In this document: piece by piece, positions 4,794 to 62,030 of the stretch
How positions within the stretch are numbered: position 1 is the first letter of the stretch
Layout: the number at the start of each line of letters is the position of its first letter
IMG/VR virus record: IMGVR_UViG_3300045988_062794
From: a virus
DNA: 64,000 nt
Reading direction: 5' to 3' (one strand)
Position numbers and translations under genes: made by a program
Notes under the pieces: generated by a model
What the model was told of the DNA's origin: nothing
Seen by the model: the letters and a program-made list of their open reading frames with translations, nothing else
The model's database searches: none

Positions 4794-5252
4794 TTATAAG
4801 TTATTTATTGTTATTGTTATTTGTTCTTTATTATCCATCGCCTTCTGAAGTAGGGGTATAAGCTTGTTATAAGCTACAGTAGAATTAGATATCCAATCTT
4901 CTTTCATACCATCCCAAGTACCTACTAGGATACATCCTTCAGTATCAGCTGTTTTATTGCCCGTATGGATACGTATACCTAAGAAGTGAGGTACATTAAG
5001 TATCTCAGGCATAATACGCTTAAAACGGCTAGAATAGCTTAATTTCACCTCATACGTACCAGCAGGTACAGCTGTGTCCCCATACACCTTTTCCTTGCAT
5101 TTACATGTAATTCCTTTAGGTGTATTAGGACATACTTCAGGTAATGGTCTTACTGGATCTTCAAGTGTATCCGATATATACGCACCATCTACATATAACT
5201 CCCCAATAGTATATTCATTAGTGCGAAATATTCTATCTAATCTGAGTTCCAT
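4794..5252 (-). CDS. DUF5675-like protein (YkuD/L,D-transpeptidase-like HxGN..DTxGC motif), possible cell-wall enzyme
   Basis: GTYEVKLSYSSRF...NVPHFLGIRIHTGNKTADTEGCILVG resembles the DUF5675 signature, recalled from memory. Confidence 0.4.
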   Translation of the reverse strand: MELRLDRIFRTNEYTIGELYVDGAYISDTLEDPVRPLPEVCPNTPKGITCKCKEKVYGDTAVPAGTYEVKLSYSSRFKRIMPEILNVPHFLGIRIHTGNKTADTEGCILVGTWDGMKEDWISNSTVAYNKLIPLLQKAMDNKEQITITINNL

Positions 5253-5767
5253 TACGCAGCAGGTGTTTCTAATGCAGCAACTCTCTCTTCTAAAGCACTT
5301 ACTTTAAGAGTTAATGCAGTAATCAATTCCCTTACTTCACTATCGTTGTAATTTGATAAACCTGCAAGCTTGGTCTTTTCTTCTGTAGTATAATCATTAG
5401 TGGATAATCCTTTACCAGTTTGTTTATCTACTTTACCTGCAATAAGTTCTGCATGTGTATTAATAACATCAATTAATTCAGGTAAGCTATCCATAATTTC
5501 AGGAGCATCTCCAATTAAAGCATCAATCTTAGCTTCAATTTCATTTTCACGTCCAGTTGCCCTACTTATTTCAGAAGTGAGATCACTTCTTAGATCTTTA
5601 ATATCTGATGTAGCTTTATTATTTACATAAACCCAATTCTTACCATCAAAATACTTCAAATCACCACCATTAGGATTAGAAGCTAAGTCTGCCCAATATT
5701 TAACAGATGCCGGATTAGGTTTAATTGTACTCCCTAATATATCGTATTTATTATTATATGTATTCAT
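5252..5767 (-). CDS. short tail-fibre protein (coiled coil)
   Basis: The N-terminal KYWADLASNPNGGDLKYFDGKNWVYV resembles the N-terminus of the 1489-aa fibre. It also carries the GKGLSTNDYTTEEKTKLAGL fibre repeat. Confidence 0.55.
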   Translation of the reverse strand: MNTYNNKYDILGSTIKPNPASVKYWADLASNPNGGDLKYFDGKNWVYVNNKATSDIKDLRSDLTSEISRATGRENEIEAKIDALIGDAPEIMDSLPELIDVINTHAELIAGKVDKQTGKGLSTNDYTTEEKTKLAGLSNYNDSEVRELITALTLKVSALEERVAALETPAA

Positions 5768-5773
5768 AAGTTA

Positions 5774-5808
5774 TTAAAATAAAAAAGGTTGACTATTTAG
5801 TCAACCTT
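5774..5808 (-). terminator. intrinsic terminator-like hairpin
   Basis: 9-bp stem aaggttgac/gtcaacctt (5785-5793 / 5800-5808) with a 6-nt loop. The plus-strand A-run 5776-5786 becomes a U-run on the minus transcript. Confidence 0.5.
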
Positions 5809-5814
5809 TGTGTT

Positions 5815-6378
5815 TTAGATTTCAATTTGTTTCTCCTCAGCTTGAGGAACCTTTTCATTAACCTCTGGACGAACAGTAGTTACATTTTGTAAAAGTTGCT
5901 TAAGCTCTTTCACTTCAGCTTTTAATTCATCAAGTTCTTTGAAATCTTTTGTCACATTGGTTGTTATGTCCGGAGTTGTATTAAGTAATTTTAAGATGTC
6001 TTCACATCTCCTCATCTCTTCATCGTATTTTAATACGCTTTCCTTTTTAACTTTGCAGTCATTATAGGATTGCTTAACCATATCTACAATTTGAGTTTTA
6101 TCTGTAGCTATAGTAAGTCCGATGGTAGAATCGGTCATCATTGTTTTATCTTCAGATACTGACAGTTTCTTCTGCTCACCGTCACAAGAGATAACTAAAT
6201 CTACAAGCTTACGCCTATTTTGCATAGGCATTGGGAATTGACCTGGTGGCAATGGTTCATCGTAGGGTTTTGATACACTTACTACTTTACCTAAACTGTA
6301 TGTAGTACTCTTTTTAAAAGTACCTGTAATCTCGAGTACGTGTATATTTGTACCCGGCGTTAACTGTGAGAATGTCAT
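5815..6378 (-). CDS. hypothetical protein
   Basis: 187-aa ORF bounded by terminator-like hairpins on both sides. Confidence 0.55.
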   Translation of the reverse strand: MTFSQLTPGTNIHVLEITGTFKKSTTYSLGKVVSVSKPYDEPLPPGQFPMPMQNRRKLVDLVISCDGEQKKLSVSEDKTMMTDSTIGLTIATDKTQIVDMVKQSYNDCKVKKESVLKYDEEMRRCEDILKLLNTTPDITTNVTKDFKELDELKAEVKELKQLLQNVTTVRPEVNEKVPQAEEKQIEI

Positions 6379-6390
6379 ATCTTTAAGTTT

Positions 6391-6426
6391 AAAAAGATAT
6401 GGGCAGGTATTACTCGCTGCCCATAT
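6391..6426 (-). terminator. intrinsic terminator-like hairpin
   Basis: 10-bp stem atatgggcag/ctgcccatat (6397-6406 / 6417-6426), with a short A-run on the plus strand at 6391-6396. Confidence 0.4.
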
Positions 6427-6442
6427 ACTTAGTTAATATATA

Positions 6443-6880
6443 TTAGGCAGCTGGAGCTGCAGCCACAGTGTAATGATTCATAACCTGAATAACATTATCG
6501 CATTTATTGTAATAAACCCAATATCTGTTACCAGCAGAGATTTCAGAACCAACTAATGGTGTGCTATCTCCTTTTACTACAGGTATATTATTGTTATTTG
6601 AAGCAGTGCTTACTGAACCAGTAGTAGATACAAACACAGGAAGTGTTGCACTAGCAGTGGCAGGAGTATGTCTAACCTCTAATACAAACACACCTTCTCT
6701 AGGAAGTCTACACCACACTTTAGGACAGATACCCAGAACTGTAGATTCTGTTGAATCACTTACGCTTATTGTATTGATTTTCGGTATTACTTGGTCTAAA
6801 ATACGAACGGTATTGTTACGTCCAAAGTAAGGATTAAACATGAAAGGAAACATAATAACCTCCTTTCTTATTAAGCGCAA
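6443..6880 (-). CDS. hypothetical protein
   Basis: 145-aa ORF that overlaps the upstream gene by 10 nt. Confidence 0.5.
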   Translation of the reverse strand: MRLIRKEVIMFPFMFNPYFGRNNTVRILDQVIPKINTISVSDSTESTVLGICPKVWCRLPREGVFVLEVRHTPATASATLPVFVSTTGSVSTASNNNNIPVVKGDSTPLVGSEISAGNRYWVYYNKCDNVIQVMNHYTVAAAPAA

Positions 6881-7818
6881 CAGCTATCACCGTAGCCATA
6901 TCCGTAACCATAAGGGTTTCCATAGCCTGTAAATCCACCATTACATCCATAAGGATTACATGTTAAATATGCAGGAACTGGACAAGGTTTAATCTGATTT
7001 ACAATATTCTGAGTCTGCTGTTGAGTAATAGCAGAAGTTTGCAATGCGTTCTTTTCATCACGTAGAACATCAATCTTATTCTGCATTTCTCTCATTTCTA
7101 ACTGACAGAATTTATCATTGATAATCTGGGTCTGAGCATCTATCTTAGCACCAAGAATGTTAAATCTTGTAGCGTTTTCACTAGACAAGTTGCAGAACCC
7201 TGAAGTAATAGCGTTTTGCAAAGTGTTGGTTTGCTGACAGATAGACAATCTGTTATCAGCATTCATCTGAGTTAAGTTCAAATTAACTGCATCGATTGAA
7301 CGCTGAGTTGTGCAGCAGCAGTCACTAATAGCTTTGATTACGTTGCAATCACCAGCATTAACAGCATTGATTACTCTTTCTGCAGAGAAACCTACTTCAC
7401 CACCAACCTTACCAATTGCATTCTGGATAGAACACAAAGCATTGTCAATTGACTTAACATCACAGTTCAAGTTAGTAGACAAGGTATTGATTGCTTCCTT
7501 GTTACCATTGATAGCCTGCATCAACAAATCAGTATTGTTGTTCTGGTTACCCATAGCGGCTAAACGAGCGAAGTCAGAGTTGGTTTCAGCCTGGTTGCCA
7601 CGACCGAAGCCGTTGCCACCCCATCCGCCCCACATCCAGAAGAGCACGATGATGAAAATCCACCACCAACCACCATTGCCACCGAACATACCATTACCGT
7701 TGTTCATCATAGCCATCAAAGCAGCAGGATCAAAACCTTTATTAGCATTTTGCATCAAAGCAGCGATACCGGGGTCAATACCACCACGGTCTACAATTAT
7801 TCTTTCGTTTTCTAACAT
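6871..7818 (-). CDS. hypothetical membrane-associated Gly/Trp- and Cys-rich protein
   Basis: Contains GGNGGWWWIFIIVLFWMWGGWGGNGFG (a likely TM segment), a long N/Q-rich helical region with about 14 Cys, and a G/Y-rich tail ending GYGYGYGDSCCA. Confidence 0.5.
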   Translation of the reverse strand: MLENERIIVDRGGIDPGIAALMQNANKGFDPAALMAMMNNGNGMFGGNGGWWWIFIIVLFWMWGGWGGNGFGRGNQAETNSDFARLAAMGNQNNNTDLLMQAINGNKEAINTLSTNLNCDVKSIDNALCSIQNAIGKVGGEVGFSAERVINAVNAGDCNVIKAISDCCCTTQRSIDAVNLNLTQMNADNRLSICQQTNTLQNAITSGFCNLSSENATRFNILGAKIDAQTQIINDKFCQLEMREMQNKIDVLRDEKNALQTSAITQQQTQNIVNQIKPCPVPAYLTCNPYGCNGGFTGYGNPYGYGYGYGDSCCA

Positions 7819-45154: not shown

Positions 45155-45168
45155 TAATCATGAGAATG

Positions 45169-45200
45169 GCTGGTCTTAGTGATCAGCTGTTCTTTTTTTC
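45169..45200 (+). terminator. intrinsic terminator
   Basis: gctggtc-ttagt-gatcagc followed by tgttcttttttt. Confidence 0.7.
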
Positions 45201-47069: not shown

Positions 47070-47155
47070 GTAAATGTAGTTTAAACACTATTATAGTGTA
47101 AGGAGAAAACAAGCAATTTTCATTGCTTATAAGAGTTCGAGTCTCTTCATTTACT
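47070..47155 (+). ncRNA. tRNA-like element 1 (acceptor + T-arm canonical, interior non-canonical)
   Basis: Acceptor gtaaatg/catttac and T-arm aagag-ttcgagt-ctctt. The interior 54 nt fold as gttt…aaac plus a 6-bp/6-nt-loop hairpin aagcaa-ttttca-ttgctt. I found no 5-bp/7-nt anticodon arm. Confidence 0.45.
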
Positions 47156-48499: not shown

Positions 48500-48850
48500 C
48501 AGTTTACAACTTCATTATTTCTTCAGTGGCTGTACTTGCATGCGAATGTAGGTGCAGTCGTCCTCAGAAAATGACAAACCTGTGGGGCGTAAGTAACTAA
48601 GTAGTAATACTATAATGTCAGTATGTAGTATTACACTGAAACTGACTGTTATGATCGTGCGGACGTAAAAATCAGGTAGATGATAAGAATTGTACTGACA
48701 ATACAATTCTGCTGTATCTTAAAACAAGTTTTGATAGTCAAATTTTCCTAAACCAATCCTCGTTATTAGGTAAAATTTCTTTTTGTTTACGTATTGCTAC
48801 AACAATACACATCTGTTATGTATTTATTTTGCATTGTAGTTGTAGATACA

Positions 48851-49437: not shown

Positions 49438-49689
49438 CTCGCCAGTTATAACTCTTTTATTAATAACTCTAAAGTTAACGCTTATGAGTATGGTGGTTAT
49501 CCCCAAGCATGTTAAACCTAACGCCCTAAACTCACTAAAATGTATATGAAGATATATACTACGAGTTGTGTATTTATATACAAATGACATAGTAAAAGTT
49601 CTATGTTAATTATAAGAAGGAAAGGAGGTAAGATAGGAATAAGGAATAAGAATACTATCTCATGCTTTTTACTTTAGAAACTTATTTGT

Positions 49690-50402: not shown

Positions 50403-50842
50403 TCTACAATCCAGTACTAAAGTGTCTATGTACTAATAGTATGTGTAATGTGAATCTTGAGTAGCATTACAGAGAGGAATAAACCTCTCTACTCAAGTCC
50501 CTTGTGGCAGTAGTAGGATATATGAGCGTATCAAAGACGGCAAGTATGTGTGCCTTAGTGCCAGCTTTTTGCTACATACTTTCTATCAAAGATTTCAAAT
50601 TGAAAACAGTATATGCTTTATGCTAGATTCTATGAGTATGTCTTGTATTTTGTTTAGCATTCAATAAGTCCCAGGCATGGGCAAGGAATCAATAACACTA
50701 TTACAAATATACTCTTTATAGAATCAATACTATTAGTAAATTCTTAGAGAGTAAGGAGAGTGATCTCCTTACTTTCACTATATTCACGGTATAAGAACTG
50801 TGCTGTGTCTTATTAGGCTTATTAATCATTGTTAGGACGGGG

Positions 50843-51388
50843 CTATCGTATGCCCCCATCTCCACTATACTTTTGTGCAATTATATTGCATAATTTAATA
50901 GTATCTTCATGAGACATTGTATTTTTCATATAATTTATTGCAGTAGATATAAATTGTACATTACCAATTTCATATCCTTTAGAAGAATCTATTCTATCTA
51001 AAGATGCAGTATAAATAGGATTATTATGATTTTTAGTATAAGTTGCTAATTGTAATTTAATTCCAGTATATGGACAAATACCGTTTTGTTGTTCCCATAT
51101 TTCTTTTAGATATTCTAATGTTAAATTAAAGTTTTTAAGTCTTTTCTTTGCATTTCTAAGATAATATCTAAAAGGAGTAAATTCATCTTTGCGATTATTT
51201 GAAATAAGATTAATAATATTACCACTTTTATTATTTTTATTTCCTTTCATTGAACAAGATCTACAACAATAATTATGTCTTTTCAATCGTATATTACGAT
51301 TATATTCTGTAATTGGTTTATCATACAGTTGTCCACAATTATCACAAACTATTTGAATTAATTTTCTATTCTGTTTATATTTTAACAT
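50843..51388 (-). CDS. HNH/His-Me-finger homing endonuclease with N-terminal zinc ribbon
   Basis: CDNCGQ…CCRSC forms the zinc ribbon. ASLDRIDSSKGYEIGNVQFISTAINYMKN fits the LDRID..GY..N…N endonuclease pattern. It is antisense to the surrounding operon. Confidence 0.6.
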   Translation of the reverse strand: MLKYKQNRKLIQIVCDNCGQLYDKPITEYNRNIRLKRHNYCCRSCSMKGNKNNKSGNIINLISNNRKDEFTPFRYYLRNAKKRLKNFNLTLEYLKEIWEQQNGICPYTGIKLQLATYTKNHNNPIYTASLDRIDSSKGYEIGNVQFISTAINYMKNTMSHEDTIKLCNIIAQKYSGDGGIR

Positions 51389-51591
51389 AATATTAAAATT
51401 TTTAATTCGAAAACGTATAATATGTGGAATAGTTCTGTTTCGATATTAAAATATACGGGGATGAACGGTTTTGACTAGCAATTAGAGAGATAAGATAGGT
51501 TCGTTGTGTGTTTAAATGGCAATATTTTTGTCACAGACTATACCGGCTTAGTAGCTGCGTAAGTTTGCGTGCTAACTACGAAAGTGAGGGA

Positions 51592-51657
51592 GATAATATA
51601 GTTCAATGGTAGAATAATGCTTATGCATAGATCTGGGTTCAAATCCCAGTATTATCA
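51592..51657 (+). ncRNA. tRNA-like element 2 (66 nt, anticodon arm replaced by 4-bp/tetraloop hairpin)
   Basis: gataata-ta-gttc-aatggta-gaat-a-atgc-ttat-gcat-agat-ctggg-ttcaaat-cccag-tattatc-a. U8, A14, G18G19 and TTC…C61 are all in place. Confidence 0.6.
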
Positions 51658-52568: not shown

Positions 52569-52986
52569 ATTGAAAGAAAGTGGAAGCTATTTAGTAGTCG
52601 TAGAAGGATGCGAAATCATTGCAGTAATAGAAGGATGCGCACCTATGTTACGAATAACTCGTGCATTTAACTTATCTAAGTTCATAGAAGATGGAACAAT
52701 GATCGACAGTAAAGAAGCCGTAGAGGCTATAAGTCAGAATCCTTCTAATTTCAATTTCAAACCATTAAATTTAACTGTTGAGCAATTCTCGTTGCAAGAG
52801 ATTAAACAAGACAAATCATTAGCTTACACTAATAAAGAATACCAAAGATGGTTATCTATCTGTGGTAGTATTGACGATAGTGTTCTAATTAGCAATATCA
52901 TGCTCGAAAAAGGGTTTAGTCATGCACAAGCAAACTTAATAGTTGAACAGTTATGGAAGGACAAAAGAAACTCATTACAGCGGTAG
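52561..52986 (+). CDS. hypothetical protein
   Basis: 141-aa ORF. Confidence 0.5.
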   Translation: MNELKESGSYLVVVEGCEIIAVIEGCAPMLRITRAFNLSKFIEDGTMIDSKEAVEAISQNPSNFNFKPLNLTVEQFSLQEIKQDKSLAYTNKEYQRWLSICGSIDDSVLISNIMLEKGFSHAQANLIVEQLWKDKRNSLQR

Positions 52987-53432
52987 ATGAGCAAGACTTA
53001 AACAAATATTTAAGGAGTCGATTAGTAGAACCATATCTTCCAAAAGATTTAGTAGAAGATTGGTCTATATTTGGGTCTGTAGTATCAAATGTATATGGAC
53101 CAAACGGTATATTACCACCTGAATACAGAAACAACGATTTAAAACTATGGCTACTACATAAGTTGCAAGTAAAAGCGTTGTTAAAGTATGCTCAGTGGAA
53201 GATTTTCAGTAATATAGCTATGCTAAATAACAGAAGATCCACTGATAATGTATTAACAAGGATATTTGTATCTAAGTTAAACAATTTGGAACTGCCTAAA
53301 GTTTATGCAGATGAAATATTTGATAATTTTCATCTACAATATGTGGTACGCAAGCCTGTCTTTGAAGACTATTTTGTTATCAAAGTATTAGGTTTACCAT
53401 TCGGGTATGAACGAAAGGAGTGTCCTTTTTAG
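52953..53432 (+). CDS. hypothetical protein
   Basis: 159-aa ORF. Confidence 0.5.
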   Translation: MEGQKKLITAVDEQDLNKYLRSRLVEPYLPKDLVEDWSIFGSVVSNVYGPNGILPPEYRNNDLKLWLLHKLQVKALLKYAQWKIFSNIAMLNNRRSTDNVLTRIFVSKLNNLELPKVYADEIFDNFHLQYVVRKPVFEDYFVIKVLGLPFGYERKECPF

Positions 53433-53466
53433 ATAGGTAGGGGTTCGACTCCCCTACTTATCACCA
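53432..53466 (+). ncRNA. tRNA acceptor/T-arm minihelix ending in ACCA
   Basis: 12-bp helix gataggtagggg/cccctacttatc capped by the T-loop ttcgact (G53…C61 context), followed directly by ACCA. Confidence 0.55.
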
Positions 53467-53485
53467 CCATTTAGTTTATTAGCCT

Positions 53486-54046
53486 ATGAAGAGAGAAGAT
53501 GAAGACAATCTAATTAGGCAGGCTAAACTTGGCGATCAGAAAGCTTTTAGTACGCTTTACGACCGTCACAAGCCATTAATTCGATACATTATCTTTGATA
53601 TTGTAAAGAATGATGATGTAGCAGATGATCTCCTATCTGTTACATTTACTAAGGCTTTCAGTCGTATAGACTCATATGTTAATCCTATTTCATTTGAGTT
53701 ATGGTTGAAGAGTATTGCGGTCAATACCTCAATTGATTACATACGACACACTAAGAATGAGAAGCAGAATCATTATATTGATTCCGAGGATAATTACATT
53801 CAATTGCAAGATAGTGAATTGTCTGCAGAAGATATTATATCTAAGCGAGAATCTATTGATCAATTGAAAGTAGCTCTGAGTAGATTGAGGTTTAAGTACC
53901 GTAATATATTAGAATTACGGTACTTTAAAGGCCTCAGCTATGAACAACTCGCAAATGAATTAGCCGTGCCTATAGGAACTATAAAAAGTGACTTAAACAA
54001 GGCTAAAAAGAAATTACGAGAATTCTATAACAAACTTAATAACTAA
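53486..54046 (+). CDS. ECF-type (sigma-70 family group 4) RNA polymerase sigma factor
   Basis: Region 2 (FSTLYDRHKPLIRYIIFDIV…DDLLSVTFTKAF) and region 4 (LELRYFKGLSYEQLANELAVPIGTIKSDLNKAKKKL) are both present. Confidence 0.8.
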   Translation: MKREDEDNLIRQAKLGDQKAFSTLYDRHKPLIRYIIFDIVKNDDVADDLLSVTFTKAFSRIDSYVNPISFELWLKSIAVNTSIDYIRHTKNEKQNHYIDSEDNYIQLQDSELSAEDIISKRESIDQLKVALSRLRFKYRNILELRYFKGLSYEQLANELAVPIGTIKSDLNKAKKKLREFYNKLNN

Positions 54047-55957: not shown

Positions 55958-56350
55958 ATGAGCCGTTTAACAGATTTTCTTTGGTGCGTATTGTTCGCTT
56001 TTGCAGCGGTTATTATTAGCATCAAATTGAGCCCACAAAGGGTAGAAGCTGTTGAGGTTAAACCTCATTACGAGCTTACAATTCCTAAGGTCGAGCCTAA
56101 GTCTTTTAACTTAGAGCTTGACCTCTCTAAGGGAACAGCGAGAGTAGAAAGTGACGCAGGAATCAGTAACGCTAACGTTACAGTAAATCACCCTGCACCA
56201 CAAGTAATTAACAAACCTGCAAAGGTTAAAATTAAGAAAGTATATGAAACAAAAACTGAGGTGTTGTCGAAGGTCGTGATGTTTAAAATGCCTACCCCAC
56301 GATTGATTCACACAACAACACCTGAGTATCCTACAAGGGTAGTGAAGTAA
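55958..56350 (+). CDS. N-terminally membrane-anchored protein
   Basis: 130 aa with the TM segment FLWCVLFAFAAVIISI. Confidence 0.5.
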   Translation: MSRLTDFLWCVLFAFAAVIISIKLSPQRVEAVEVKPHYELTIPKVEPKSFNLELDLSKGTARVESDAGISNANVTVNHPAPQVINKPAKVKIKKVYETKTEVLSKVVMFKMPTPRLIHTTTPEYPTRVVK

Positions 56351-58644
56351 TTAACATTGTGCTTACTGTAGAATGGCACCAGGGAAAACGAGTCTACCCC
56401 TGTAGTAAGAAGATAGATAGTGGTATTGTAGCTGATACACTTAAAAAGCAATAAAATCAGCGTATATAAATTACGATAAATCTGATCAATTTATGGTTTG
56501 TATAGACAAGTAATACAGAATACGAGAATATGATAACAGCTAACACTGTGATTCAAAAGGTAGTATAATAACTTGCTGTGGATTTATTACTTTATCCATG
56601 AAGAATCAGCAAGAAAATGGGTAACGGGTATAACCCATAAAGCTCGAGAACCGTCTGGTGGAGCGATTACAACACGGCACGTAGGTCAGCAGACACGAAG
56701 GCAAAGTATACAAATGGGGTACAAATCCTTAAGTAAGTAGAAATGGCAATTCTACTGAATCCCCAATAGAGTCTGTAGGTACTATCAAGTACGGCATCAC
56801 AGAAGGACGAAAAGGGTTAATTATCGTTAGAATTCCAAACTAATGATAGCCGTTTAGACTGACTAACGTCTTCGATGGGTCCAAACTATCGTTAAAAATA
56901 GCTACTTCTAGTGTTCTACTCTACTGTTATTACTGCTTTGTATTACAGTAATAAAGATCTTGACAACATAACATATGGTATAGTTATGGATGAGTATGTG
57001 AAAGGAAGGATTCAAACCAAGAAAATTAATAATCGAAACTAAAAGCTGAGTGGCTATGATCCATACAAAGTTAAAGAGGTAACGGACTTTAATAGCGTAT
57101 GACAGATTATCCGGAGCAGGTGCCAAACCTGTGCTTGAGAAAGCTTATTAGAATGTTCACTTAGCCTTGCAAACTAAGTTAAATAGTTCTTTTAAGGGGG
57201 TATTCCAGGTGCTAGGTCTAGATTATGTGGGAGAGATTACCACGTCTTTGCGAAATCAAGGATTAAGAAAGGTATAAGGTTTGAAGAACAGTGACCGAGT
57301 TTTGTGCTTACATTATTTAATGAGAGTTATGTCACTATAAGTCATGGAAACTAAGCACACAGTGGTAAAAGTACTGAGAACTACTACCAAACAACAGAGG
57401 TGCAGTAGCGATGCACGTTGTACGCAATAAAAAAGGAATCCTACCGCCTGCGGTGTTTTAAAGGTGTAGGTAAGTTTAGTTAAAGCTTTCTTTAATAGAT
57501 ATAACGAAAGTGGGGCTAATGTATAGTCAATGGGCTAAATTCAAGTCTGTTAATCCAGAGAAATGTAAATGTTACGATGTTTACCTGAATCCAACGATTC
57601 ATCACTGGCTCGAGAGTTAACGAGACTCTTAAATAAAAGCGTGGATAACATGTCTAACTAACGTAGGTCCAAAAACCGAATAATAAATCTGTGGAAGTCC
57701 TCGCTAAGGAAACTGACTGCGACCACAGCTTGGCGAATGCGATTGCTTAGTAGTATCAGGGTATAATGCGCAACATTATATGTCCGAGAGAAAGCGTCTC
57801 ATTGAAGCTTATAGACCTTTAAGAGTGAACCTAATAGGGAAACTATACTTATAGACCTGTCATAAGCGAGAGTAGATGAGAAGAGGTGAAAGTCCTCAAT
57901 CTTCAACCAAGTAAAATAAATAAAATCCTAGTCATGGTTACGTTGGCATCCCTATACTTAGTAATAAGTATTATATGGCGTAAGAAGTAGGTATTAGTGA
58001 ATAACTATATGAATCCTATAAGTTATTACAAATAACAAAGAATGATGAAACTTACTTCATTCACTTCGCAGTTTTAGTAACGTTCTGAAAAACGACCGGA
58101 CATAACTACTTGCCCGATAGAGAGTTTTATTTTGTTGCCACATAAAATAATTATTAGAGGTCAATCTCTGGATAATCTAAAAGTTAGGCAGTTGTACGCT
58201 GTTTTATGTGAGTGCAGTTGGTCCTGAGACACCAGGAGAACCTTGGCAAAATATTACGGATCCTCTATGATAACGATTGTAGAGTATTTCACACATATTG
58301 ACTGAACTAAGAGAATCCTTCGAAGAGTCTCATTAGCTCTGGTCATAAAGCGATTTGATAGTTCCAAAGTAAGATAAATAAGTAATTTTGTAGTATCTGT
58401 CTCATATTATAAAAGGATATAGCAATAGCATAATATCAAGAAAGTTTATCTCGCTTCTAAAACAAATTAAAGTAAAAACAGTTTCTTTTCGTATTTCTAT
58501 CTCAGTATCTCTTGAATGAGACACGACCGTGGTTTTAACCTATCTGATATAAGATGATGATAAATCGTGCATAAAAACAAAGAGAAGAATACGGAGCACC
58601 AATTAAAATTATTATTAACAAACTTATCAAAAGGAGAAAATAAA
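56351..58644 (+). other. ~2.3-kb ORF-free region, candidate large structured non-coding RNA locus
   Basis: The only track ORF is a 72-aa antisense one. All three stop codons are dense in sampled plus frames. The central ~56600-58360 is GC-richer, purine-rich and full of 6-9-bp local helices. Confidence 0.4.
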
Positions 58645-59990: not shown

Positions 59991-61304
59991 ATGGTTAAAA
60001 CGTACAATAACATTGCAGAATATGCCAAAAAGTTACTAATTGAAGCAAATCCGTATATTGATGAAAAAGATATTTATATCACAGCTAATACAGATATAGC
60101 TAGTACTTTTCGAATATTAAAAGAAAAAGACTTAGCCTGTATTGACACAAGTGGTACTGAAGAAATACCATTAATACATTATACTATTTATAGTGAATCT
60201 TTAAAAGAAAAAGAGAAAGCATTTAGTAAAGAACGAGCATGTGAGCGTATTTTACAAGGTATAACTTCATATTCTTGTGAAGGGTTTACTGTAATTTCAG
60301 TTAGAGTAATTAATAAAGAAGAATCGCCAAGTGAAGAAGATTTTATACTATATGCTTTTACTGAAGCTATGTATAATCGAGCATTTGAATTAGCCTATAA
60401 AGAAGGAGAGATCAAATACACTATCGTACCAGATAATGGTATACATCGTGCAATCGTGCGTGATTCTATGATGGGAAAATATCTTGAATATATTAAAGTA
60501 GAAGATATACCGTCTAATAGTGCTATTCATCAATGCAAAGAAGATATTCTTAAAAGTGCAGAGTTCTTCTTTAAGAATATTCCATTATTCTCACGATTTG
60601 GACAGAAACCGTTACGTAAGTTCTTATTGTGTGGAGAACCTGGAACAGGTAAAACTTCTATTTGTTATGATATTGCTAAGGAATATCAGAAAGATATACC
60701 TATAGTATTTGTGACAGATTTTGATTCTTTAGCAAAACACATTTCAGAATGTGCAAAGGTTAATAAACGAACCATTGTAGTATTTGAAGATTGTGAAGTT
60801 GGCTTCCGTAATTCTGCAATTGACTCTTCAATTCTTAACTTCCTTGATGGTATTGATCGACCGAATATTCAGGATGGTGCTATAGTTATTATGACTACTA
60901 ATCATCCAGAACGTATTGAGGCTCGTATTACCAAACGTCCAGGTCGTATCGATAAGTTATTCTTTATAAACGCCTTAGAAGGACAATCAGCAATTGATGT
61001 CTTTAACCTTTACTTTGGTGAATTTATGAAGGAAAATAATTTTGATGCTACTACTCAAACAGCAAAAGAAGCTATTGAAATTATTGCTTCTGGTATGACT
61101 GGTGCTCAGATTAAGGAATTATTTAACAGTTATGTTTGTTACATGGTATCAGAAGCAAAAGATTTTAACCTCAATGACGTATTTAATACGAAAGTTGAAT
61201 TGTTTAAATCTTTTGATGACATGGACAAGAACTATAACTCTATAGAAGCTAATAAAGAGTTTGATAAAGCTCGAGGTAAAATTCTATCTGTTTTGAACAG
61301 ATAA
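59991..61304 (+). CDS. AAA-family ATPase
   Basis: Walker A (LLCGEPGTGKTS), Walker B (IVVFEDCE), and a sensor/second region of homology (MTTNHPERIEARITKRPGRIDK). Confidence 0.8.
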   Translation: MVKTYNNIAEYAKKLLIEANPYIDEKDIYITANTDIASTFRILKEKDLACIDTSGTEEIPLIHYTIYSESLKEKEKAFSKERACERILQGITSYSCEGFTVISVRVINKEESPSEEDFILYAFTEAMYNRAFELAYKEGEIKYTIVPDNGIHRAIVRDSMMGKYLEYIKVEDIPSNSAIHQCKEDILKSAEFFFKNIPLFSRFGQKPLRKFLLCGEPGTGKTSICYDIAKEYQKDIPIVFVTDFDSLAKHISECAKVNKRTIVVFEDCEVGFRNSAIDSSILNFLDGIDRPNIQDGAIVIMTTNHPERIEARITKRPGRIDKLFFINALEGQSAIDVFNLYFGEFMKENNFDATTQTAKEAIEIIASGMTGAQIKELFNSYVCYMVSEAKDFNLNDVFNTKVELFKSFDDMDKNYNSIEANKEFDKARGKILSVLNR

Positions 61305-61391
61305 GCATAGAGTAGGAGAAATTAAGTTTTCTCCTACTTACACTGGTAATTGATGCAAAATCGATAGTATTAATTTTAAAATCAAATCGAT

Positions 61392-61922
61392 ATGTTGACA
61401 TCAAAAGATATTATTACAAAACGCGACACTTTGTCTGAAACCATTACTCGTAATTGGGATATCATTAAGAGTGAAAACGTAGTTTTTCGTGGTTATAAAC
61501 GTAACTATGATATGAAGTTAGTTCTTGATAACATTTTAACTCTGTGTAAGGAAAGAATTGAAGTAAAACTTCAGTCTTTAGCATTAAACCTTGGATTCGA
61601 AGATATTGACGATCTTCCCGAGGATAATAATTATGCTACAATCTATGCTATAAGTGAATTGAAAGAGATTCACAAGCAGTTAGGCATTGTTCCTACAATC
61701 GACCCAGAGATTATTAAAAAATACGGTAAGAAGAAAATGCGTAAAACGCAGATTTTGAGTCGAGCATATATTACGACCCTACGGAATACTATTCAGATTC
61801 AAATCAATACTCTTACTGTAGAACTTGAAAACTTCAATAGCAGTCATTCATTGAAAAATGGTGATCGTAAGAAAGGAAAGTCTGTTACAATGGACTTCTC
61901 TAAACAGAAAGCTGCTGCATAA
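61392..61922 (+). CDS. hypothetical protein
   Basis: 176-aa ORF. Confidence 0.5.
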   Translation: MLTSKDIITKRDTLSETITRNWDIIKSENVVFRGYKRNYDMKLVLDNILTLCKERIEVKLQSLALNLGFEDIDDLPEDNNYATIYAISELKEIHKQLGIVPTIDPEIIKKYGKKKMRKTQILSRAYITTLRNTIQIQINTLTVELENFNSSHSLKNGDRKKGKSVTMDFSKQKAAA

Positions 61923-61964: not shown

Positions 61965-62030
61965 TTGTGTATAGTTTAATGGTAGAATATCTCGAAAGAG
62001 AAGATATGAGTTCGAGCCTCATTACACAAC
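61965..62030 (+). ncRNA. tRNA-like element 4 (66 nt, anticodon arm replaced by 4-bp/GAAA hairpin), paralogue of 51592..51657
   Basis: ttgtgta-ta-gttt-aatggta-gaat-a-tctc-gaaa-gaga-agat-atgag-ttcgagc-ctcat-tacacaa-c. All helices covary with element 2 while the loops are identical. Confidence 0.6.

What the first reader, a model, noticed from the sequence alone, without database searches (positions are those of the whole stretch)
53432..53466. Encoded tRNA minihelix (acceptor + T-arm only) ending in ACCA, directly before the sigma-factor gene
gataggtagggg-ttcgact-cccctacttatc forms a 12-bp helix, equal to 7 bp of acceptor plus 5 bp of T stem, with one G-U pair. It is capped by a consensus T-loop and followed immediately by A-C-C-A. 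This is the classical minihelix, which established biochemistry shows to be a substrate for RNase P, the CCA-adding enzyme and some aminoacyl-tRNA synthetases. It starts at the last base of the upstream stop codon and ends 20 nt before the sigma-factor ATG. There is no U-tract, so it is not a standard intrinsic terminator.
Basis: partly seen in the sequence, partly recalled or inferred. Interest (0 to 1): 0.7.

Follow-up and report, generated by a model that had tools for sequence, protein, structure and literature searches.

The report
tRNA-top-half hairpin before phage sigma gene
A very abundant human-gut crAss-like phage keeps, just before its sigma-factor gene, a hairpin shaped like the top half of a tRNA; it most likely tells the host's tRNA-trimming enzymes where to cut the phage's long RNA, though no cut has been measured.

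Summary
At 53432-53462 there is a perfect 12-bp helix with one G-U pair. Its loop is TTCGACT, it is followed by ACCACCA, it starts on the last base of the upstream stop codon, and it ends 19 nt before the sigma-factor ATG.

The window is a crAss-like phage of the family Suoliviridae. About 90 related contigs have a hairpin at this position, in genera whose sigma proteins are only 49% identical. The helix always spans 12 positions, has no indels and shows strong covariation. It is always flanked by A(-1) and A73-C74.

The tRNA details are lineage-specific:
- The T-loop occurs only in the window's wider clade; other genera have 6-nt loops such as TTGATC.
- ACCA occurs only in the window's own species; relatives mostly have ACTA.

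A paralogous copy sits just upstream of a circularly permuted phage tmRNA. A third copy lies at 61310-61339. tRNA-like elements with no anticodon flank the other sides of these units.

My best reading (about 0.5) is a tRNA acceptor/T-arm mimic that directs RNase Z and/or RNase P cleavage, like plant mitochondrial t-elements. It has no U-tract. No identical sequence was found in representative bacterial genomes, so it is not an attachment-site fragment. The function is inferred, not shown.

The parts
53432..53443 (+). 5' strand of the 12-bp helix. It corresponds to acceptor positions 1-7 plus the T-stem 5' strand, and its first base is the last base of the upstream stop codon TAG.
   Evidence: covariation
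53444..53450 (+). 7-nt loop TTCGACT, which matches the T-loop consensus TTCRANY and is closed by a G-C pair.
   Evidence: conserved only in the window's wider clade
53451..53462 (+). 3' strand of the 12-bp helix.
53463..53469 (+). Unpaired tail ACCACCA. A73 and C74 are invariant across relatives; the CCA is specific to this species.
52953..53432 (+). Upstream ORF (159 aa, no family match). Its stop codon overlaps the first helix base.
53486..54046 (+). ECF-type sigma-factor gene, 19 nt downstream of the ACCA.
50747..50780 (+). Paralogous hairpin directly upstream of the tmRNA acceptor piece: GAGAGTAAGGAG-AGTGAT-CTCCTTACTTTC (12 bp, 6-nt loop), then ACTA.
   Evidence: orthologues in relatives
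61310..61343 (+). Third paralogous hairpin, 5 nt after the stop of ORF 59991-61304: GAGTAGGAGAAA-TTAAGT-TTTCTCCTACTT (12 bp), then ACAC.
   Evidence: (26.4 bits, E 0.0007); the cr10_1 orthologue has a different helix sequence and the same tail
50785..50870 (+). Acceptor piece of a circularly permuted (two-piece) tmRNA. It ends ...GGACGGGGC-TATCGTAT-GCCCC-CATCTCC-A, and no CCA is encoded.
   Evidence: homologous ARAGORN tmRNA* calls in cr10_1 and L090
51457..51590 (+). Coding piece of the tmRNA. Its 5' GGGGATG pairs with CATCTCC and includes a G3-U70 pair. The tag reading frame ends ...DYTGLVAA.
51592..51657 (+). tRNA-like element with no anticodon (4-bp stem plus tetraloop in place of the anticodon arm), directly 3' of the tmRNA coding piece.
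   Evidence: Rfam tRNA 59.2 bits; ARAGORN finds none
61965..62030 (+). Second tRNA-like element with no anticodon (GAAA tetraloop), 3' of ORF 61392-61922.
   Evidence: cr10_1 orthologue

Best explanation
The hairpin mimics the acceptor/T-arm half of a tRNA and is transcribed as part of a long + strand polycistronic RNA. It most likely serves as a cleavage signal for the host's tRNA-maturation endonucleases.

Two cuts are proposed:
- RNase Z cuts after the unpaired A73. This would give the sigma-factor mRNA a 5' end with a leader of about 20 nt.
- RNase P, additionally or alternatively, cuts at the 5' edge of the helix. This would end the upstream message at or inside its stop codon.

The same device, in a paralogous copy, would define the 5' end of the acceptor piece of the phage's two-piece tmRNA. 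Anticodon-less tRNA-like elements would define the 3' ends of units through RNase P.

Shown: the structure, its conservation, its fixed length, the fixed A(-1)/A73/C74, its strand, its positions and its paralogues.

Inferred: which enzymes act, and whether cleavage happens at all.
For: 1. Helix length is fixed. Across about 90 contigs, down to 49% sigma identity, the helix always spans 12 positions with no indel, although nearly every pair changes sequence.

2. Covariation is strong.
- In 11 sequences with 6-nt loops, 100% of cells are paired and 9 of 12 pairs show changes on both sides; 0 of 500 shuffles reach this.
- In 9 sequences with T-loops, 97% of cells are paired and 9 of 12 pairs show changes on both sides.
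- Within the window's species, pair 5 occurs as G-U, G-C and A-U.

3. The paired strand is the + strand. G-U pairs are frequent and A-C mismatches are almost absent, which points to sense RNA rather than a DNA cruciform.

4. The flanks stop the helix from extending. A(-1) and A73 are always present and cannot pair with each other. C74 is invariant.

5. Three lineages carry an exact T-arm, GGGGTTCGACTCCCC or AGAGGTTCGACTCCTCT.

6. A paralogous copy lies 8 to about 60 nt upstream of the permuted tmRNA acceptor piece in every genus examined. That leaves no room for a promoter in between, so the hairpin must be co-transcribed with an RNA that tRNA-processing enzymes are reported to cut (PMC11915505).

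7. The 3' side of the tmRNA coding piece, and of ORF 61392-61922, carries tRNA-like elements that have lost the anticodon loop but kept the acceptor, D and T arms. They appear to be kept for their shape rather than for decoding.

8. The same region holds a Hatchet self-cleaving ribozyme and a RAGATH motif. Only one canonical terminator is found on the + strand between 44 and 64 kb.

9. There is a precedent. Plant mitochondrial t-elements and acceptor-stem-like stem-loops mark mRNA 5' ends (RNase Z) and 3' ends (RNase P) (PMC1920247).
Against: - No transcript ends are available, so cleavage is entirely inferred.
- Most genera lack a T-loop. Any enzyme involved must be reading helix length rather than the loop.
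- Only 2-3 copies exist per genome. This is not a general punctuation system.
- The window's ACCA would be an anti-determinant for RNase Z in several bacteria (textbook knowledge). Position 75 drifts freely between T, C and A.
- Some lineages have imperfect helices. The L007 type has 11 bp plus an A-C mismatch, and the L028 type has two U-U mismatches.
- N(-1) is A, whereas bacterial RNase P prefers U at this position (textbook knowledge).
Confidence: 0.5

Rival explanations
1. The element is an RNA-stability or transcription-boundary hairpin. It could be a non-canonical, U-tract-less terminator or attenuator that separates the upstream genes from the sigma gene. It could also be a protective stem-loop at the 3' end of the upstream mRNA or at the 5' end of the sigma mRNA.
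For: The hairpin is stable and GC-rich at its tip (-20 kcal/mol), and it lies exactly at a gene boundary. The sigma factor is a plausible switch between temporal classes. Copy number is low, with copies at the starts of discrete units.
Against: There is no U-tract, although the same phage uses a canonical hairpin-plus-T-run terminator at 45162-45194. The tmRNA-upstream paralogue lies as little as 8 nt from the tmRNA, so it must be read through. A stability hairpin would not need a span of exactly 12 positions held over deep divergence, nor an invariant A(-1)/A73/C74, nor a T-loop. The distance from the conserved upstream coding motif varies from 0 to about 85 nt, which argues against a fixed promoter with a start site at the hairpin.
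Confidence: 0.22
2. The hairpin is an operator for a phage or host RNA-binding protein. The protein would co-regulate translation or stability of the sigma mRNA and the tmRNA precursor, and would recognise a 12-bp stem with an A-C tail.
For: The dimensions are fixed and the flanking bases are invariant. There are few copies, and they sit at specific genes.
Against: The loop sequence, the usual protein-recognition surface, differs completely between genera and between paralogues: TTCGACT, TTGATC, TTGGGT, AGTGAT and TTAAGT. No candidate RNA-binding protein was identified among the neighbouring genes.
Confidence: 0.1
3. The excised minihelix is itself the product. It would be a small CCA-ended RNA of about 35 nt that is aminoacylated, or that acts as a decoy for host factors that bind or attack tRNA acceptor ends.
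For: The window species encodes ACCA and has a consensus T-arm. By textbook biochemistry, minihelices are substrates for CCA-adding enzymes and for some synthetases.
Against: The encoded CCA and the T-loop are not conserved. No synthetase identity pair is conserved: the 3-70 pair is U-A, A-U, G-U or G-C. The sequence is free to vary as long as pairing is kept.
Confidence: 0.08
4. The element works at the DNA level. It would be a fragment of a host tRNA gene used as an attachment or recombination site, or a cruciform used as a homing target.
For: Phage attachment sites often contain tRNA 3' halves (textbook knowledge). An HNH endonuclease gene lies nearby, at 50843-51388.
Against: The 23-nt 3' half has no exact match in one representative genome of each of 185,579 bacterial and archaeal species. 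The 5' strand co-varies with the 3' strand. G-U pairs occur only on the + strand, which would give A-C mismatches on the other strand. The element stays in place whether or not the HNH gene is present.
Confidence: 0.03

Closest known systems
Plant mitochondrial t-elements and acceptor-stem-like stem-loops (Forner et al. 2007, PMC1920247)
   Same: These are tRNA-like or bare stem-loop structures inside mRNA precursors whose edges coincide with mRNA 5' ends (RNase Z) or 3' ends (RNase P). They were found with the same GGTTCRANYCC motif. The released elements receive non-encoded C/CA. CCA is not encoded in them, as in most relatives here.
   Different: Those are organellar, mostly degenerate cloverleaves. 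Here the element is a phage of Bacteroidales, a strict 12-bp hairpin with no D or anticodon arm, and it is paralogous to a hairpin that flanks a tmRNA. Ends were mapped in plants; none are mapped here.
mascRNA / MEN-beta tRNA-like elements of MALAT1 and NEAT1 (Rfam RF01684)
   Same: A tRNA-like fold inside a long transcript is cut by RNase P and RNase Z and so defines the end of the flanking RNA. RF01684 is the best structural match among the weak Rfam hits.
   Different: The score is 16.3 bits against a gathering threshold of 42.5, so this is not a member. mascRNA keeps a cloverleaf with a reduced anticodon arm, and it is eukaryotic and nuclear.
Synthetic tRNA minihelices (textbook RNase P, CCA-adding-enzyme and alanyl-tRNA-synthetase model substrates; cited from memory)
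   Same: The window's element has the same architecture: a 7+5 bp coaxial stack, a T-loop, a discriminator base and CCA.
   Different: Those are laboratory constructs. Here the element is genomically encoded and evolutionarily maintained, and only the helix length and A73-C74 are conserved.
RNase P-processed phage hairpin RNAs (P1/P7 C4 and P4 CI antisense RNAs; cited from memory)
   Same: These are phage-encoded, non-tRNA hairpin substrates whose ends are made by a host tRNA enzyme.
   Different: Those are regulatory antisense RNAs with specific target complementarity. No target complementarity or conserved primary sequence is seen here.
Animal mitochondrial tRNA punctuation
   Same: tRNA-shaped elements between genes act as cut sites, and cuts fall at or inside stop codons.
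   Different: That system operates genome-wide with functional tRNAs. Here there are only 2-3 hairpins plus a few non-decoding tRNA-like elements in one transcription block.

Membership tests
tRNA minihelix (acceptor/T-arm half of a tRNA) | Continuous 12-bp helix (7 acceptor pairs plus 5 T-stem pairs) | tested here: met
   The 12-position span is conserved in all relatives.
tRNA minihelix (acceptor/T-arm half of a tRNA) | 7-nt T-loop of consensus TTCRANY, closed by a G53-C61 pair | tested here: met
   The window has TTCGACT closed by G-C. This is not a family-wide feature: 34 of 88 contigs have 6-nt loops that are not T-loops.
tRNA minihelix (acceptor/T-arm half of a tRNA) | Unpaired discriminator base followed by CCA | tested here: inconclusive
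   ACCA is present in the window's species only. Relatives have ACTA, ACAC or ACAT. A73 and C74 are invariant. CCA could be added after transcription.
tRNA minihelix (acceptor/T-arm half of a tRNA) | Acts as a substrate for RNase P, RNase Z, the CCA-adding enzyme or a synthetase | not testable with these tools
   Needs in vitro assays or RNA end mapping.
Canonical tRNA gene (Rfam RF00005) | Cloverleaf with a D arm and an anticodon arm | tested here: not met
   ARAGORN finds nothing. There is no RF00005 hit at 53432-53466, even at E up to 10.
Intrinsic (Rho-independent) terminator | GC-rich hairpin followed at once by a U-tract | tested here: not met
   The tail is ACCACCA, and the scan does not list the site. 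The phage's canonical terminator at 45162 is listed.
tRNA-like mRNA processing signal (t-element or mascRNA type) | tRNA-like fold located at the boundary of a functional RNA unit | tested here: met
   It lies at a stop-codon / 5'-UTR boundary. Paralogues lie at the tmRNA 5' boundary and at an ORF boundary.
tRNA-like mRNA processing signal (t-element or mascRNA type) | Mapped RNA ends coincide with the edges of the element | not testable with these tools
   No transcript data are available.
mascRNA-menRNA (Rfam RF01684) | Score at or above the family's gathering threshold | tested here: not met
   16.3 bits against 42.5.
tmRNA acceptor piece | The 3' acceptor strand pairs in trans with the 5' end of a coding piece, with G3-U70 and a GGAC element before the T-arm | tested here: not met
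   The helix closes on itself, the 3-70 pair is U-A, and there is no GGAC. The real acceptor piece is at about 50785-50870.
Phage attachment site carrying a host tRNA 3' half | Sequence identity to a host tRNA gene | tested here: not met
   No exact match of GGGTTCGACTCCCCTACTTATCA in the representative genomes of 185,579 species.

The most novel reading that the evidence does not exclude
Suoliviridae crAss-like phages run a small tRNA-enzyme 'cut-here' system. Strict 12-bp ruler hairpins ending in A-C would mark 5' boundaries through RNase Z. tRNA-like elements stripped of their anticodons would mark 3' boundaries through RNase P. Together these would carve a two-piece tmRNA and the sigma-factor mRNA out of one early transcript. 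Because the hairpin begins on or next to the upstream stop codon, a cut at its 5' edge would produce non-stop messages. The phage's own tmRNA could then handle those messages, linking RNA processing to phage-controlled ribosome rescue.
Probability: 0.3. Interest if true: 0.8.

Novelty: new variant of a known kind. Interest (0 to 1): 0.62.

Why it matters
This phage group is among the most abundant in the human gut. The exact sigma protein of this species is indexed in 3,383 blocks of the assembly collection. Almost nothing is known about how these phages process their RNA.

A conserved, covarying hairpin with tRNA-top-half dimensions, paralogous to the element that flanks a permuted phage tmRNA, gives a concrete and cheaply testable hypothesis: these phages borrow host RNase Z and RNase P to time sigma-factor and tmRNA expression.

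It would be a natural bacterial-virus counterpart of plant mitochondrial t-elements and of mascRNA. It would also be a naturally evolved version of the minihelix used for decades as a model substrate.

The fixed 12-bp span across large sequence turnover is a natural experiment on the 'molecular ruler' used by tRNA enzymes.

The element is absent from Rfam 15. I found no description of it in the searchable literature.

Tried and rejected
- **Canonical tRNA or tmRNA at the site.** ARAGORN finds nothing, and Rfam gives only sub-threshold matches at E up to 10: mascRNA 16.3 bits and a tmRNA T-arm fragment 11.2 bits.
- **Intrinsic terminator.** There is no U-tract and the scan does not list the site.
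- **Attachment-site or host tRNA fragment.** No exact match in representative genomes.
- **N4-like hairpin promoter on the template strand.** The G-U-rich, A-C-free pairing places the structure on the + (sense) strand. The spacing to upstream conserved sequence is also variable.
- **Conserved alanine identity (G3-U70).** It is present in some relatives (the L007, L010, L022 and L027 types) but absent from the window and from cr10_1. It looks like a transitional G-U state rather than a conserved feature.
- **Covariance model R1.** It was built from the 6-nt-loop sequences and was too sequence-specific to recover the window's own copy, even with filters off. I used a descriptor scan instead.
- **First MAFFT alignment of mixed loop lengths (A2).** It put the gap inside the helix, so I did not use it for pair counts.
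- **Metagenome scan for the T-arm core.** It returned only known variants and ordinary tRNAs, and gave no information on transcript ends.
- **Look-up of contigs encoding the sigma protein.** I hoped for short transcript-derived contigs, but only long genomic contigs were returned.
- **Rfam search of the 80-nt insert next to the minihelix in L028/L057.** No ribozyme match.
- **Literature searches** for crAss plus tmRNA, tRNA-like, minihelix or RAGATH. Nothing describes this element.
- **Search for repeats or alternative-code ORFs in the ORF-free stretch 56350-58564.** Nothing found.

Full report
**1. The observation**

- The upstream ORF (52953-53432, 159 aa) ends in TAG at 53430-53432.
- The G of that stop codon opens a perfect 12-bp helix: 53432-53443 pairs with 53451-53462. 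One pair is G-U.
- The helix is capped by TTCGACT (53444-53450), which matches the T-loop consensus and is closed by a G-C pair.
- ACCA follows at 53463-53466. The full tail is ACCACCA.
- The sigma-factor ATG is at 53486.

Folded as RNA, 53420-53485 forms only this hairpin: -20.1 kcal/mol, z = -3.6. The T-arm motif GGTTCRANYCC occurs twice in 64 kb against 0.11 expected. No T-run follows the helix, and the terminator scan does not report the site. The downstream gene is an ECF-type sigma factor. ARAGORN and Rfam find no tRNA at this position. The best Rfam matches are sub-threshold: mascRNA at 16.3 bits and a tmRNA T-arm fragment at 11.2 bits.

**2. Where the window comes from**

The window is a crAss-like phage of the family Suoliviridae. 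The nearest named genome is cr10_1 (Canhaevirus), about 73% identical over the sigma region. Genes run on the - strand up to about 43 kb and on the + strand afterwards. The species is very common: its exact sigma protein is listed in 3,383 blocks of the assembly collection.

**3. Comparative evidence**

I used the sigma protein, and then an alignment of seven sigma proteins, to fetch 87 related loci. I added annotated genomes of Culoivirus and Buchavirus.

A hairpin lies between the upstream stop codon and the sigma gene in every locus collected for this comparison. Across lineages whose sigma proteins fall to 49% identity, the helix sequence is almost completely replaced. The helix still always spans 12 positions, with no insertion or deletion.

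Pair counts:

| Set | Cells paired | Pairs with changes on both sides | Shuffles reaching this | Paired when the 3' strand is slid by 1-3 columns |
|---|---|---|---|---|
| 11 sequences with 6-nt loops | 100% | 9 of 12 | 0 of 500 | 34-51% |
| 9 sequences with T-loops | 97% | 9 of 12 | 0 of 500 | 48-57% |

Inside the window's own species, pair 5 occurs as G-U, G-C and A-U. G-U pairs are common and A-C mismatches almost absent, so the selected structure lies on the + strand, that is, in the sense RNA. The base before the helix is always A. The two bases after it are always A-C. Because A(-1) cannot pair with A73, the helix cannot grow beyond 12 pairs.

**4. What is not conserved**

- ACCA is confined to the window's species. 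That is 5 of the first 88 contigs, plus 10 more contigs of the same species. Elsewhere the tail is mostly ACTA, with a few ACAC and ACAT.
- The T-loop occurs in the Canhaevirus-like clade, the L028 group and L057/L072. Culoivirus has TTGGGT. Buchavirus and L022 have TTGATC or TTGGTC.
- The L007 type has 11 pairs plus an A-C mismatch. The L028 type has two U-U mismatches.
- No synthetase identity pair is conserved. G3-U70 appears in some lineages but not in the window.

**5. The element has paralogues and tRNA-derived neighbours**

A covariance model built from the sigma-upstream hairpins found a second copy in each genome, just upstream of a tmRNA. A descriptor scan (perfect 12 bp, loop of 4-8 nt, then AC) finds three sites in the window against 0.17 expected:
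- 50747-50776, before the tmRNA;
- 53432-53462, before the sigma gene;
- 61310-61339, after ORF 59991-61304.

The complete cr60_1 genome has only the tmRNA and sigma copies on the relevant strand. The cr10_1 orthologue of the third site has an entirely different helix but the same tail, ACACTGG.

The tmRNA is circularly permuted, that is, two-piece.
- In the window, the acceptor piece is at about 50785-50870 and the coding piece at 51457-51590. They are separated by an HNH endonuclease ORF on the other strand.
- Strains of the same species without the HNH gene have a contiguous permuted tmRNA that ARAGORN recognises.
- CCA is not encoded at the tmRNA acceptor end either.

Directly after the coding piece lies a tRNA-like element (51592-51657, Rfam tRNA 59 bits). 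Its anticodon arm is a 4-bp stem with a tetraloop. A second such element is at 61965-62030. Relatives have similar non-decoding versions at the same places. A Hatchet ribozyme and RAGATH-9 lie a few kb upstream. Only one canonical terminator is predicted on the + strand between 44 and 64 kb.

**6. Interpretation**

Three features together describe the part of a tRNA that RNase P, RNase Z and the CCA-adding enzyme measure. This part of the argument rests on textbook knowledge and was not tested here. The features are:
- a 12-position helix held constant while its sequence turns over;
- obligatory unpaired A(-1) and A73-C74;
- an exact T-arm in several lineages.

In Buchavirus, the tmRNA-flanking paralogue sits 8 nt from the acceptor piece. 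It must therefore be co-transcribed with it, and it cannot be an efficient terminator. Transcripts of permuted tmRNA genes are reported to be cut by tRNA-processing enzymes (PMC11915505).

The arrangement is hairpin-AC on the 5' side and tRNA-like element on the 3' side. It occurs around the tmRNA and again around ORF 61392-61922. This fits a division of labour. A minihelix is enough for a cut on its 3' side by RNase Z, which frees the 5' end of what follows. A fuller tRNA shape guides RNase P, which frees the 3' end of what precedes.

The closest documented parallel is the plant mitochondrial t-element and acceptor-stem-like stem-loop system, in which mapped mRNA ends coincide with such structures (PMC1920247). 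I give this explanation a confidence of about 0.5.

**7. Rivals**

- A stability or boundary hairpin (0.22) fits the position. It does not explain the fixed length, the fixed flanks or the T-loop.
- A protein operator (0.10) is weakened by the complete turnover of loop sequence.
- A functional released minihelix, charged or acting as a decoy (0.08), is weakened because CCA, the T-loop and identity pairs are not conserved.
- A DNA-level site (0.03) is contradicted by strand-specific G-U pairing, by covariation, and by the lack of any identical sequence in representative genomes of 185,579 species.

**8. Verdict**

The element is a genuine, conserved mimic of the tRNA top half.

It is absent from Rfam 15, and I found no description of it in the literature I could search. 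I class it as a new variant of a known kind, namely tRNA-like RNA-processing signals. The function remains inferred until RNA ends are mapped.

Noticed in passing
window 51592-51657 and 61965-62030: Two 66-nt elements score as tRNA in Rfam (59 and 48 bits), but the anticodon arm is replaced by a short stem with a tetraloop (TTAT, GAAA). They have no anticodon, and ARAGORN misses them. Orthologues in cr10_1, L024 and L028 also have aberrant 4-6-nt 'anticodon' loops.
   Followed up: partly
window 50785-50870 and 51457-51590; HNH ORF 50843-51388 (-): This is a circularly permuted (two-piece) phage tmRNA with tag ...DYTGLVAA. In the window its two pieces are separated by an HNH endonuclease gene. 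Strains of the same species without the HNH gene (L090 and others) carry a contiguous permuted tmRNA with a canonical T-loop. The HNH-carrying allele has a compensated acceptor stem (GGGGATG/CATCTCC instead of GGGGCAT/ATGCTCC) and an odd 8-nt T-loop.
   Followed up: partly
window 47071-47155: A degenerate tRNA-like element: acceptor GTAAATG/CATTTAC, T-arm AAGAG-TTCGAGT-CTCTT, an anticodon-arm-like AAGCA-ATTTTCA-TTGCT, and a large insertion in the D region. A run of seven T follows it directly. The Rfam tRNA score is only 16.7 bits.
   Followed up: partly
window 48560-48677 and 49493-49670: A Hatchet self-cleaving ribozyme (85 bits) and a RAGATH-9 RNA (92 bits) lie in the same + strand block. 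Relatives carry RAGATH-20 and RAGATH-22 upstream of their tmRNA.
   Followed up: no
L028 2865-2945 and L057 (same position): An insert of about 80 nt with predicted structure (TTTAGAA...TTCTAAAC closing stem) lies between the upstream stop codon and the minihelix in two lineages. It has no Rfam match. It could be an unknown ribozyme or regulatory RNA.
   Followed up: partly
L026 475-529, L073 240-294 and other Loutivirinae loci: In the hairpins upstream of the tmRNA, the loop TTGGTC is complementary to the conserved 5' flank GACCAA, so a pseudoknot is possible. The sigma-upstream copies show nothing similar.
   Followed up: no
window 56350-58564: About 2.2 kb has no ORF of 150 aa or more on either strand, whether under the standard code or with TAG or TGA read through. 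There are no Rfam hits and no notable repeats. cr60_1 has a similar unannotated gap (record 5160-7303).
   Followed up: partly
L088 3544-3667 (- strand), cr10_1: Another tRNA-like element (acceptor GGAAGAG/CTCTTCC, T-loop TTCGATT), preceded by a GAAA-capped hairpin, lies just upstream of the DNA polymerase gene. The equivalent position is beyond the end of the window.
   Followed up: no
L001 2075-2110 (cr10_1): An extra T-arm-like hairpin, AGAGG-TTCGACT-CCTCT, lies between the tmRNA acceptor piece and the coding piece. Its T-arm is identical to that of the L057 sigma-upstream minihelix.
   Followed up: no
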